Shown here: positions 3,298 to 62,217 of the stretch, piece after piece
Layout: each line of letters opens with the position of its first letter
Numbering within the stretch: the stretch's first letter is position 1
Origin: Octopus sinensis
Lineage: Eukaryota
Length of the DNA stretch: 64,000 nt
Direction: 5' to 3'
Assembly (NCBI RefSeq): GCF_006345805.1
Contig: NC_042999.1
Span: 77,624,001-77,688,000 of the forward strand
Position numbers and translations under genes: made by a program
The notes under the pieces: model-generated
The model's database searches: none
What the model was told of the DNA's origin: nothing
What the model saw: the letters and a program-made list of their open reading frames with translations, nothing else

Positions 3298-3762
3298 TAT
3301 TTCTTTACTACCCACAAGGGGCTAAACACAGAGAAGACAAACGGATTAAGTCGATTACATCAACCCCAGTGCGTAACTGCGTAATTTATCGACCCCCGAA
3401 AGGATAAAAGGCAAAGTCGACCTCGGCGGAATTTGAACTCAGAACATTTCACAGACGAAATACTGCTAAGCATTTCGCCTGGCCTGCTAACGTTTCTGCC
3501 AGCTCGCCGCCTCAAACTCATGCTAACGTACATATACCTATTTCTTTATTACCCACAAGGGGCTAAACATAGAAGGGACAAACGAGGACAGACATAGGTA
3601 TTAAGTCGATTACATCGACCCCAGTGCGTAACTGGTACTTAATTTATCGACCCCGAAAGGATGAAAGGTAAAGTCGACCTTGGCGGAATTTGAACTCAGA
3701 ACGTAACAGCAGACGAAATACCGCTAAGCATTTCGCCCGACGTGCTAACGTTTCTGCCAGCT
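3298..3762 (-). mobile_element. Two tandem SINE copies (family A) separated by target-site duplications
   Basis: Copies at 3298-3511 and 3539-3762 are homologous to copies at 3825, 44985 and 45246. AACGTACATATACC occurs at 3284, 3525 and 3765. Confidence 0.85.
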
Positions 3763-3824
3763 CTAACGTACATATACCGTCAACTTCAGGATTACAGAGG
3801 CGCACTTCATTTGTAGAATAACCA

Positions 3825-4050
3825 AGCTGGCAGAAACGTTAGCACGCCGGGCGAACTGCCTAGCGGTATTTCGTCTGTTGTTACGTTCTGTGTTCAAATT
3901 CCGCCGAGGTCGACTTTGCCTTTCATCCTTTCGGGGTCGATAAATTAAGTGCCAATTACATACTGGAGTCGATCTAATCGACTTAATCCGTTTGTCTGTC
4001 CTTGTTTGTCTCCTCTATGTTTAGCCCCTTGTGGGCAATAAAGAAATAAG
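3825..4050 (+). mobile_element. SINE (family A)
   Basis: AGCTGGCAGAAACGTTAGCACGCCGGGCG..GTTCAAATTCCGCC (B-box-like)..AAAGAAATAAG. Confidence 0.85.
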
Positions 4051-4157
4051 AATAACACCTAACCTGAACCGTGGTAATGAGATAGACGCTCGGAAACTCA
4101 TTGACTGCTTCCAAGATCATTAACCAGCAGTAGCCAACGTTAAGAAGAAGAAGAAAG

Positions 4158-22965: not shown

Positions 22966-23300
22966 GTAGTTGTGTAAAGCCAGAACAATGCGAGAAGGTA
23001 CAAAGTAAACTACAAATTGAAAAGAAAATAGAACAAAGTTGAAGCTTTACTTTTTATTTCTATATTTCGGAGTGAAGACCCCTTATTCAGGACATTCAGA
23101 AAAGTGGTAGTTGGAAAAGGCTGTTTGCTCAGATGTGGGCAACAATCTTTTCCAACAACAGCCTTTCCGAATGTCCTGAAGAAAGGGTCTTCACTCCGAA
23201 ATATTGAAATAAAATGTAAAATTTCAACTTTGTTCTATTTTCTTTATCTTTTGTAGTTTACTTTGCACCTTTTCGTGTTATTTCGGCTTTACACAACTAC
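22966..23300. mobile_element. Fold-back element with an outward-facing hammerhead pair
   Basis: Inverted arms of ~155 bp. Plus-arm HHR 23171-23210 is atgtc-CTGAAGA-a-agggtcttcactcc-GAAA-ta-TT-gaaat; the mirror copy at 23056-23095(-) has CTGAATA. Confidence 0.75.
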
Positions 23301-29218: not shown

Positions 29219-29512
29219 ATTGAGGTATGGTCCTGGTTGTTCAAGGACTTATGCAGAAATCCTTCAACTCACATGCATATGGGCATCACACATACCCTTA
29301 ATATCACATAATATAAACTTATGAATCCACAACCTCATGAGTTTATAATCTCGTAAACCAAGTTTGACGTCAAAATATATGAAAAATATGTGAAACTCCA
29401 CAGTTATGAGTACACACCCAAATACGAACAAAACGCCTAATGCAGATGCAGAAATGTGTGTGTGTGTGTGTGAGCGTGTGTACATGTATGTATGTATGTG
29501 CGTGTATGTATG

Positions 29513-29585
<73 letters not shown>

Positions 29586-29848
29586 ATACATGTACACACA
29601 CTCACACACACATTTCTGCATCTATATTAGGCGTTTTGTTCGTATTTGGGTGTGTACTCATAACTGTGGAGTTTCACATATTTTTCATATATTTTGACGT
29701 CAAACTTGGTTTACGGGATTATAAACTCATGAGGTTGTGGATTCATAAGTTTATATTATGTGATATTAAGAGTATGTGTGATGCCCATATGCATGTGAGT
29801 TGAGGGATCTCTGCATAAGTCCTTGAACAACCAGGGCTATACCTCAAT
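29219..29848. repeat. ~630-bp palindrome centred on a (TA)n tract
   Basis: The arms are reverse complements with only a few substitutions, giving mirror ORFs 29264..29611(-) and 29492..29803(+). Confidence 0.95.
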
Positions 29849-35324: not shown

Positions 35325-36330
35325 GGATCTTTTCCTTTTCATGGGCAGCTCGATTAATTAATTTTCTTTAACTAAACACTTTGAAACTTCGTATACTGGT
35401 AGAATGTGTCATAAAGAAAATCTTTTACTCTTAGCGTTGTTGAGAAAAGTTTCTATTTACGAAGTTATTTCGTGTTAAAGTTGTCATATTTCGGTAATTT
35501 CAACCAATCAATGACGTGTATTCAGCTGAATAAAATTACTACTGTGGTTTGTCAACAACAACTTCCGGTGGTGTATATTTCGTTTGTCACTGTTATTTAT
35601 GACATATTTCATCTCAGTTACGTTCTTATGGATAAATGAGTGCATCTGAAGCATGTTTACTTCATGACACCACTACAATCGTTCGTGCATTTCCACTGCT
35701 TTTAGGTTTTTGTTTTCCTGTTTTTCAGCTACTATTTCCGGAGAGACTTCCTCCCCCACCATTTTCTCGCAAATTATTGTTTTTAAAATTTTCTTTTGCC
35801 AAAAAACCCAGCTTTTCGGATACGGAGATTCCAGAAAATTGCCAAAAATCGGAATTTTGAAATTTTTTGGCCCCCACCCCACTTACTCCACCCTCCTCCA
35901 ATTTCTTCATTTTTCACTTTTTTCCGTAACTCTTACCTTACAACCCTAACCCTAACCCTAAAACACTAACCCTAACCTTAACCCTAATCCTAAAACCACA
36001 ACCCTAACCCGAAAACCCTAAAGGTAAAACCAGTACAAACGCACAAACGATGTCATAAATACCAGTGACAACCGCCGATAGTTGTTGACAAACAACAGCA
36101 GCAATTTTATTCAGCTGAATATACGTCATTGATTGGTTGAAATTACCGAAATACAACAATTTTAACACGAAATAACTTCGTAAATATAAACACGAACTAA
36201 CTTCGTAAATATCAACAACGCTAAGAGTAAAAGATGTTCTATATGATACATTCTACCAGTATACGAAGTTTCAAAGTGTTTAGTCAAAGAAAATTAATTA
36301 ATCGAGCTACCCATGAAAAGGAAAAGATCC
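35325..36330. mobile_element. Non-autonomous Merlin-like DNA transposon with ~280-bp TIRs and internal (CCCTAA)n
   Basis: Ends GGATCTTTTCCTTTTCATGGG / CCCATGAAAAGGAAAAGATCC, perfect 8-bp TSD CTACATTT (35317, 36331), telomere-like repeats at 35943-36020. Confidence 0.85.
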
Positions 36331-48718: not shown

Positions 48719-48988
48719 ATGTTATATTTCGGGATGATCATTTTGTGTTCTTTTGCCTAATAAACACACGCAATATACGTTCATCCTTCTTCGGCATTAT
48801 TATTGTTCTTATTCTGTGTCCTTTGTCTTAAATATTTCGTCACTCATCCTGTGACCTCTTCAATATGTAACGAAAGATTTAAGATGAAGGACACAAAAAC
48901 AAGTCCAATAATAAAGCTAAAGTGATGAACGAATATATAGTGCGTGTGTTTATTTGGCAAAAAAATTACCATCCCGAAGTATAACAAT
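48719..48988. mobile_element. Fold-back element with a hammerhead motif at 48829-48865(-)
   Basis: Inverted arms of ~120 bp. Minus strand ta-TTGAAGA-g-gtcac(aggatga)gtgac-GAAA-ta-TT-ta; the plus arm keeps only gtaacGAAA. Confidence 0.65.
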
Positions 48989-56874: not shown

Positions 56875-57113
56875 GGAACAAAAACGTAATAGAGGACACT
56901 GAAACATTCGGACAGATTGACGATACAAAGGCGGACAAGAGAAACACCAATTAGAAAGACAGGTAAAAAAGACGGGTCATTCGTGGCCTTATATATATAT
57001 ATATATAATTATATATATATATATATAATTATATATATATATATATATATATTATATAATATATATATATATAATATATATATATATATATGTATATATA
57101 ATATATATATATT

Positions 57114-57181
<68 letters not shown>

Positions 57182-57325
57182 GGTGATGTACTCACATAGC
57201 AAGTGATTTGATCTGAGATCGTGTGCTGAAACAAAAACAATTGCAGCGTGTTTGTAAGCAGGTGTTTGTAAGCCATTTAAGAAACACACAAAAGCCGTTC
57301 GATTCACTTCAACATTTAAGTTTAA

Positions 57326-57375
57326 TTTGTCAAAATATTTTCGTCGCTAAAATCCGCGACCTGTTCACTGACAAA
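57326..57375 (-). ncRNA. Hammerhead ribozyme variant with swapped G3:C8 core pair
   Basis: tttgtca-GTGAACA-g-gtcgc(ggatttta)gcgac-GAAA-atat-TT-tgacaaa: perfect 7-bp stem I, 5-bp stem II, palindromic AATATT stem III. Confidence 0.7.
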
Positions 57376-57426
<51 letters not shown>

Positions 57427-57427
<1 letters not shown>

Positions 57428-57828
57428 GTGGAAAAAAGTCAAGATAGAAAATGTTAAAATGATTTTATAAAAAACATTTCAGTACCGCTTTCAGTCATTG
57501 AGACTTTTTCAACTGTAAGTATGGAAAACAATTAAATTTTGAAAAAAATTAAAAGAAAAGTTTTTAAAAGAATAATTGCATAGTATTCAAATACAAGGGC
57601 CTCGAACCCACAAGAGTAAACAAGGGAGACAGAGACAGGCGGAAACAAGGAAAATACCCCTTGTATTTGAATACTATGCAAATATTTTTTTCAAAAAATT
57701 TTCTTTTAATTTTTCCAAAATTTAATTGTTTTCCATACTTACAGTTGAAAAAGTCTCAATGACTGAAACCGGTACTGAAATGTTTTTTATAAAATCATTT
57801 TAGCATTTTCTACCTTGACTTTTTCCAC
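57427..57828. mobile_element. Fold-back element (~170-bp arms) with outward-facing U3:A8 hammerheads
   Basis: Plus 57742-57777 is cag-TTGAAAA-agtc(tcaat)gact-GAAA-ccgg-TA-ctg; mirror copy at 57480-57515(-); flanked by (TG)n/(CA)n. Confidence 0.8.
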
Positions 57829-62070: not shown

Positions 62071-62217
62071 GATTACATTCGTTAGCGCTTTCGAATCAAG
62101 GATCCTTCATCAGACGTGTGTGTATGTGTGTGTGCACGCGCGTGTGCTTGTGAGTGTATATTTGTGAAATAATGTCTGATGAAAGATCCTTGATCCGAAA
62201 ACGCTAACGAATGCAAA
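62071..62217. ncRNA. Outward-facing pair of minimal hammerheads around a (TG)n spacer
   Basis: 62080-62116(-) is cgt-CTGATGA-a-ggatccttgattc-GAAA-gcgc-TA-acg; 62173-62209(+) is tgt-CTGATGA-a-agatccttgatcc-GAAA-acgc-TA-acg. Confidence 0.8.

What the first reader, a model, noticed from the sequence alone, without database searches (positions are those of the whole stretch)
57326..57375. Natural G3:C8-swapped hammerhead core
Seen: GTGAACA replaces CTGANGA within otherwise clean HHR geometry (7-bp stem I tttgtca/tgacaaa, stem II gtcgc/gcgac, GAAA, palindromic stem III, UUU triplet). Established: C3 and G8 form a Watson-Crick pair in the active hammerhead fold. Inference: a double compensatory change points to selection for activity, and standard CUGANGA searches would miss this family. 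It resembles the 48829 motif (extra G, gtcNc/gNgac stem II), which carries U3-G8.
Basis: partly seen in the sequence, partly recalled or inferred. Interest (0 to 1): 0.8.

Follow-up and report, generated by a model that had tools for sequence, protein, structure and literature searches.

The report
Swapped-core hammerhead in Penelope-like retrotransposon
Thousands of copies of one jumping gene in this animal genome carry a hammerhead ribozyme motif whose core base pair is reversed (G-C instead of C-G), likely a slow natural self-cutter of a form so far made only in the lab, although most inserted copies likely came from RNA that had not been cut.

Summary
Confirmed, on the minus strand. The motif is a minimal type I hammerhead with G3:C8. 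It is the family state, not a one-off: 3,536 exact 40-base matches in G000, none with C3:G8 on the same stem II. The family is the pseudo-LTR of a Penelope-like retrotransposon (RT plus GIY-YIG; 1,042-codon open frame; a full tandem pLTR-ORF-pLTR copy). Sister families at about 52% protein identity carry C3:G8 and U3:A8, so the pair covaries three ways. Cleavage is untested and probably slow: 94 of 100 sampled copies span the cut site, and copies starting 23 nt upstream carry a likely cap-copied G (27 of 38), so they come from uncut RNA. A mismatched G3.G8 sub-lineage also spread. Engineered G3:C8 (partial rescue) and natural U3:A8 are published. I found no natural G3:C8 in print but could not read Lunse 2017. 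This scan noted G3-C8 hammerheads behind Penelope-like RTs in two other genomes (unchecked). New variant of a known kind.

The parts
57182..57376 (-). 5'-truncated solo copy of the pseudo-LTR end of a Penelope-like element (family A)
   Evidence: 91-95% identity to 29 other loci over query 5-199; same unit flanks an RT-EN ORF in L174
57326..57375 (-). minimal type I hammerhead motif with G3:C8 core
57369..57375 (-). stem I, 5' arm (pairs with 57326-57332)
57361..57368 (-). core G3 U4 G5 A6 A7 C8 A9 plus extra G (G3 = 57368, C8 = 57363)
   Evidence: family state
57343..57360 (-). stem II GUCGC/GCGAC and loop II (loop varies between subfamilies)
57333..57342 (-). G12 A13 A14, palindromic AAUAUU helix III, U17; predicted cut between 57333 and 57332
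   Evidence: cut site inferred from hammerhead numbering
57326..57332 (-). stem I, 3' arm
57182..57276 (-). start codon (57276) and first ~30 codons of the element's ORF; the frame is shifted in this copy by a 7-nt duplication
   Evidence: matches the N-terminus of the ORF in L174; (period-14 repeat)
57182..57236 (-). PLE 'tail': stretch between the short and the long 3' end of the family
   Evidence: 16 short, 14 long, 8 other of 38 copies
56990..57181 (.). (TA)n microsatellite at the 3' end, the usual insertion target of this family
48829..48863 (-). hammerhead remnant of a different, older family (B; C3:G8 in other copies) inside an inverted repeat

Best explanation
This is the hammerhead motif of a Penelope-like retrotransposon, with the core pair reversed to G3:C8 throughout the family, and it likely works as a slow, dimer- or protein-assisted self-cleaver near the RNA's predicted start. 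Shown: the motif lies in both pseudo-LTRs of an RT-GIY-YIG element, 57 nt before the start codon, and sister families hold C3:G8 and U3:A8. Inferred: transcription starts 23 nt upstream of G3. Two copies (the two pLTRs of a read-through RNA, or two RNAs in one RNP) pair their AAUAUU palindromes to form helix III. The 2'-OH of C8 serves as general acid because G3 holds it in place, and a cut after nucleotide 59 would remove the cap and leader or release unit-length RNA. Cleavage is incomplete: reverse transcription primed in the tail mostly copies uncut, capped RNA to its first base, which gives the thousands of short copies such as this one.
For: Family state: 3,536 G3:C8 matches, 3 with both bases changed and none of them paired canonically, 0 with C3:G8. 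28 of 31 distinct ORF-linked copies are G:C across lineages down to 86% DNA identity. Parent: GIY-YIG hit PF01541, E 3e-5; 1,042-aa open frame with the motif about 920 nt behind it; tandem pLTR-ORF-pLTR in L174; homologues carry PF00078, PF01541, PF26215. Covariation on 12 copies of 4 families: 3:8 pair CG 5, GC 4, UA 3; two stem II pairs change on both sides; 72 of 72 cells paired. Engineered C3G/G8C partly restores cleavage, also in a PLE hammerhead that needs protein (PMC11167929, passages). Metazoan min-HHRs cleave weakly and only as dimers (PMC4209133). Start site: 35 of 38 copies end within 27 nt upstream of G3; G precedes AGATG in 27 of 38 such copies, whereas 58 of 58 copies that run on upstream have C or T there (P = 3e-9 against 0.25).
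Against: No cleavage was measured. 94 of 100 sampled copies extend upstream of the cut site; 6 begin at or after it, 3 of them at a stem I microhomology (counted by eye). A G3.G8 sub-lineage of about 17 listed copies, with different flanks in those fetched, was mobilised. Family D has C at the normally fixed A9. Energy models do not favour the active fold: monomer with helix III -7.9 against -14.7 kcal/mol; double hammerhead -27.2 against -29.4 for two monomers and -31.3 for another duplex; the best fold pairs G3 with U17. The covariation rests on four families, that is two swap events, and related rows inflate the score. Hammerhead mutants do not impair insertion in vitro, and no reads ended at the cut site in Anolis (PMC11167929).
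Confidence: 0.6

Rival explanations
1. The fold is kept for a structural role (protein binding, internal promoter or leader structure) and cleavage is negligible; the 3:8 pair is kept because it stabilises that fold.
For: Copies come from uncut, likely capped RNA. Cutting at nucleotide 59 would decap the mRNA. G3.G8 copies spread and family D has C9. Insertion in vitro does not need cleavage (PMC11167929). D. virilis Penelope has an internal promoter over this region (PMC2377424, passages).
Against: The bases fixed across four families (U4, G5, A6, G12, A13, A14, A15.1) and the 3:8 pair are those that catalysis requires, and the 3:8 pair forms in the active conformation (established knowledge). 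A PLE hammerhead does cleave when protein is present (PMC11167929).
Confidence: 0.25
2. The ribozyme of family A is dead. Positions 3 and 8 drifted in a founder, became complementary by chance, and all copies inherited them.
For: Once both bases have changed, a pairing outcome has roughly 1 chance in 3 (inference). C:G cannot reach G:C through a G.U step, so a mismatched ancestor must have propagated, and mismatched G3.G8 copies do exist. Single mutants at 3 and 8 occur at decay-like rates: 93 and 211 against about 3,500.
Against: All other core bases and all three stems are intact in A. Subfamilies differ in loop II and outside the motif but share the core. A second, independent swap (U3:A8) is also complementary.
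Confidence: 0.1
3. The ribozyme cuts efficiently at both pLTRs, the unit-length RNA is ligated to a circle, and reverse transcription across the ligated junction regenerates an intact motif (the model of PMC4209133).
For: It explains why long copies span the cut site and run on into the 3' UTR, and why tandems form.
Against: A circle has no end 23 nt upstream of G3 and no cap, yet most short copies stop there with an extra G. It can hold for the minority of long copies only.
Confidence: 0.05

Closest known systems
Minimal type I hammerheads of metazoan Penelope-like elements (Cervera and de la Pena 2014, PMC4209133; read parts 1-2 of 4, searched 2 of 3 supplementary files)
   Same: Located in the pLTRs; extra nucleotide between 9 and 10.1; G10.1-C11.1; palindromic, unstable helix III; thousands of solo and inverted copies.
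   Different: G3:C8 core. That paper reports C3:G8 and, in Schistosoma, U3:A8. My terms found no G3:C8 row in the searchable supplements (only 2 of 4 'GUGA' places were shown). Stem I here is a full 7 bp.
PAc (Poseidon) hammerhead of Anolis and its engineered C3G/G8C double mutant (Frangieh et al. 2024, PMC11167929; passages and part 1 of 2 of the main text)
   Same: Motif next to the ORF start; two 3' ends giving a tail; uncut RNA as insertion substrate; the same base swap.
   Different: There the swap is a lab construct with partial rescue; here it is the natural state of a family that was recently mobile. The motif lies wholly upstream of the ATG, and the clade is probably Neptune-type.
Natural U3:A8 hammerhead variants (Perreault et al. 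2011, PMC3088659; section 8 and passages)
   Same: Natural covariation at the 3:8 pair.
   Different: U3:A8 is reachable by two transitions through a wobble pair. G3:C8 needs two transversions through a mismatch and replaces the purine at 8 with a pyrimidine.
Neptune-type EN+ PLEs (as described in Craig et al. 2021, PMC8557442; passages, one supplement searched)
   Same: C-terminal GIY-YIG, cysteine-rich linker, DKxG motif, (TA)n targets, tandem and inverted insertions, tail at one end.
   Different: Clade not tested against named references; the linker is shared with Nematis; the tail is about 55 nt rather than 30-40.

Membership tests
Hammerhead ribozyme (type I) | Three-way junction geometry with stems I, II, III in type I order | tested here: met
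   helix III is 1 bp in the monomer, 6 bp only in a dimer
Hammerhead ribozyme (type I) | Core U4 G5 A6, A9, G12 A13 A14, A15.1-U16.1, H17 | tested here: met
Hammerhead ribozyme (type I) | Literal C3 and G8 (CUGANGA) | tested here: not met
   G3 and C8; 0 C3:G8 copies with this stem II
Hammerhead ribozyme (type I) | Watson-Crick pair between 3 and 8, the functional form of the previous row | tested here: met
   G:C here, C:G and U:A in sister families
Hammerhead ribozyme (type I) | Rfam hammerhead model score | tested here: not met
   no hammerhead hit in the window at E <= 5; the other minimal motifs of the window were missed too
Hammerhead ribozyme (type I) | Self-cleavage after H17 | not testable with these tools
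   only contigs were available; genomic copies show no pile-up at the cut site
PLE minimal hammerhead | Extra nucleotide after A9, G10.1-C11.1, palindromic helix III, location in the pLTR | tested here: met
   features from PMC4209133
EN+ Penelope-like element | Single ORF with RT and C-terminal GIY-YIG endonuclease | tested here: met
   the full 1,042-aa frame itself gave no Pfam or PDB hit, so the RT call rests on motifs read in the sequence and on homologues
EN+ Penelope-like element | Tandem pLTRs, inverted truncated copies, tail at one end | tested here: met
Neptune clade | Zn-finger-like linker and microsatellite targeting | tested here: met
   (CX3CX2C...C linker)
Neptune clade | RT groups with named Neptune elements in a tree | not tested
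   no named reference sequences were in hand
Non-LTR retrozyme | Head-to-tail tandem short units without coding capacity | tested here: not met
   copies are mostly solo or inverted and belong to a coding element; a few local tandems exist (L006, L257)

The most novel reading that the evidence does not exclude
A catalytically competent natural G3:C8 hammerhead, fixed in a recently mobile retrotransposon family, whose sister families in the same genome carry C3:G8 and U3:A8 and whose G3.G8 copies preserve the mismatched step of the swap. G3:C8 hammerheads would then be a class that CUGANGA-based surveys systematically missed in PLEs, and the cap-marked copies would show that the ribozyme sits mostly uncut at the 5' end of the RNA that is copied.
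Probability: 0.4. Interest if true: 0.68.

Novelty: new variant of a known kind. Interest (0 to 1): 0.52.

Why it matters
The 3:8 pair was proved by an engineered swap. A family that carries the swap naturally, beside sisters with two other pairs, is an evolutionary confirmation and tells surveys to search N3:N8' rather than CUGANGA. It also bears on an open question: what PLE hammerheads are for. Four natural states on one scaffold (G:C, G.G, C:G, U:A), each with countable genomic copies, let ribozyme speed be compared with transposition success. The extra-G signature maps the likely start site and the uncut state of the template from DNA alone. The result does not change the chemistry known for hammerheads.

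Tried and rejected
(1) A second, independent G3:C8 family in G000: a loose pattern gave 1,575 matches against 3,724 for the control; among the first 100 listed, the recurring hit lacked stem II (it resembles a tRNA-type SINE, from recall) and the rest were family A mutants or singletons. (2) An A3:U8 family: 5,000 matches against 5,468 control; two recurring hits were fetched and were a LINE RT coding stretch and a repeat without stems I and III. A3:U8 within family A: 4 matches, near my rough chance estimate of 1-2. (3) G3.G8 as a proven intermediate: the trees place those copies with a G3:C8 copy, the base of family A is unresolved and roots are midpoint only. L249 was labelled from a motif on the strand opposite its ORF, so that label is weak. 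(4) Splice-acceptor reading of the 5' boundary (branch-like and pyrimidine-rich sequence before AG): spliced copies should share exon sequence upstream, but beyond the single G the letters are not shared; not excluded as a second use. (5) Expression and cut ends from public runs: only contigs; RNA status was a guess for X7 and X13; X20 gave one contig. No conclusion. The variant tables listed nothing over the core even where the assembly has 1-3% variants, so they were not used as evidence of conservation. (6) Pfam and PDB searches with the whole ORF found nothing. (7) Papers not held: Lunse et al. 2017, Martick and Scott 2006, a PubMed id recalled for Przybilski and Hammann 2007. A search for a citation on cap-copied G found none.

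Full report
Observation. The motif is at the given coordinates on the minus strand: a 7-bp stem I, core G3 U4 G5 A6 A7 C8 A9 with one extra G, a 5-bp stem II, GAAA, the palindrome AAUAUU and U17 (positions). It folds at z = -3.40, with 1 of 200 shuffles as stable. Rfam reported no hammerhead in the window.

It is a family trait. The 200 bases around it match many loci of G000 (2.72 Gb) at 89-95% (40 of 297 candidates scored). G3 and C8 are both present in 27 of the 30 loci fetched. An exact 40-base pattern has 3,536 matches, control 0. Only 3 matches change both bases, and none has C3:G8 with this stem II. A downstream anchor has 9,110 matches, so the family has roughly nine thousand copies or more. 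Identity among copies reflects descent from a few sources and is not by itself evidence of selection.

What the family is. Copies occur solo or as inverted pairs, next to (TA)n, with two alternative 3' ends about 55 nt apart. These are the tail and inversion marks of Penelope-like elements (PMC8557442, PMC11167929, passages). Long copies lead upstream through about 1 kb of 3' UTR into a GIY-YIG domain. L134 has a 1,042-codon open frame with the G3:C8 motif about 920 nt behind it. L174 is a full tandem: pLTR, ORF with one frameshift, pLTR, with the motif in both repeats and the start codon 57 nt after the predicted cut. Homologues carry RT, GIY-YIG and PF26215 domains; the best named one is an Octopus vulgaris RT-domain protein at 54%, so the host is probably an octopus (inference). 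The cysteine linker and TA targets suggest the Neptune clade (not tested by tree). The window copy is a 5'-truncated pLTR end that holds the motif, the ATG and the tail.

Covariation. Sister elements at 50-55% protein identity have the same architecture with other cores: U3:A8 in family C (3 loci) and C3:G8 with C9 in family D (5 loci). The 48829 family B has C3 in 29 of 35 other rows; two of its loci hold PLE ORF pieces. On 12 hand-picked copies of the four families the 3:8 pair reads CG 5, GC 4, UA 3, two stem II pairs change on both sides, and 72 of 72 cells pair, against at most 55% when partners are slid. Only the 3:8 pair and stem II were counted, because stem I was out of register. This is two swap events, not twelve. 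Among ORF-linked family A copies, 28 of 31 are G:C, 2 are G.G and 1 is A:U (51 rows, of which 12 duplicates and 8 without a motif downstream were dropped). Runs under three other organism labels hold the stretch and show the same core in loose-end lines; whether these are distinct species is unknown.

The template is uncut. In the first 100 of the 9,110 anchor matches, 83 carry the 5' part of the motif, 11 start inside it and 6 start at or after the cut (by eye; the pattern excludes C at one upstream place, a slight bias). 35 of 38 motif-bearing copies from 36 loci end within 27 nt upstream of G3. Of 246 distinct copies held, 96 reach the AGATG that lies 22-23 nt upstream. 58 of them run on into the UTR and all have C or T before it. 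The 38 that stop there have G in 27 cases, with no shared letters further up (two of the 38 are tandem twins). Reverse transcriptases are known to copy the cap as an extra G (recalled; my search for a citation found none). I infer a start site inside the pLTR, as in D. virilis Penelope (PMC2377424, passages). The short copies are then complete cDNAs of capped, uncleaved 5' ends, primed internally in the tail as shown for PAc (PMC11167929).

Mechanism. Most likely the motif is a slow ribozyme that needs a partner copy to form helix III and perhaps the element's protein, as for other metazoan PLE motifs (PMC4209133, PMC11167929). G3 would hold C8 so that its 2'-OH can act as general acid; the engineered swap gives partial rescue (PMC11167929; PMC8495972, passage). 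U17 avoids a G3-C17 trap: G3-C8 was less active with C17 than with G17 (PMC3884650, passage, data not shown there), though the predicted fold pairs G3 with U17. Against strong activity: the uncut templates, unfavourable model energies for the active folds, C9 in family D, and mobile G3.G8 copies.

An unexplained excess. C8-to-G has 124 matches of 211 single changes at 8. G3-to-C is 21 of 93, and C-to-G at two control cytosines is 4 of 60 and 22 of 86 (spectra counted by eye, denominators similar but not measured). About 17 of the 100 listed belong to one older sub-lineage, mostly on C20, with different flanks in those fetched. The rest are spread over all loop types, including the youngest. 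A surviving intermediate, reversion, or a mutational hotspot all remain possible.

Known and new. PLE hammerheads, natural U3:A8 (PMC3088659, PMC4209133) and the engineered G3:C8 are known. Searches and supplement searches showed no natural G3:C8 and no octopus PLE hammerhead of this kind. Lunse et al. 2017, a large survey of PLE hammerhead variants, one supplementary file of PMC4209133 and all figures could not be seen and may contain it. Two unchecked notes of this scan describe G3-C8 motifs behind Penelope-like RTs in other genomes, which suggests recurrence but is not independent support. Verdict: real, family-wide, new variant of a known kind, activity unshown; interest 0.52.

Noticed in passing
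window 62078-62113, minus strand: A third minimal hammerhead candidate with a canonical C3:G8 core, extra A, 5-bp stem II, palindromic GCGC helix III and a 3-bp stem I; missed by Rfam.
   Followed up: no
window 23055-23090, minus strand, inside inverted repeat 22966-23300: Decayed-looking minimal hammerhead (C3, U8, 5-bp stem II, GAAA, TATA) in a 160-bp inverted repeat, probably another PLE insertion.
   Followed up: no
window 57433-57824, 29219-29848, 3533-4054, 35325-36330: Long inverted repeats (arms 120-300 nt, about 90% complementary) next to microsatellites, the shape of PLE inverted insertions.
   Followed up: no
L149-L153 (family D), e.g. L149:4551-4602: All copies seen carry C at the normally invariant A9 with an otherwise intact motif; a second unusual natural core.
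   Followed up: partly
L146-L148 (family C), e.g. L148:2819-2868: U3:A8 hammerhead in a sister PLE family with a 4-nt AAUU helix III and 3-bp stem I.
   Followed up: partly
L139, L238-L249 (contig C20): G3.G8 sub-lineage with one loop II type, clustered on one chromosome, with distinct flanks; C8-to-G is also in 5-6-fold excess family-wide.
   Followed up: partly
L066-L070, L102, L103, L190, L236: One particular inverted pair with the same junction inside the core and similar flanks recurs at many loci, so it was spread as a unit, perhaps inside another mobile element.
   Followed up: no
L253, L254, L255: Inverted pairs whose two arms differ in loop subtype or core bases, suggesting template switching between different RNAs or later change in one arm.
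   Followed up: no
L257: Head-to-tail array of ~170-nt motif-bearing units with mixed C8 and G8, retrozyme-like in layout.
   Followed up: no
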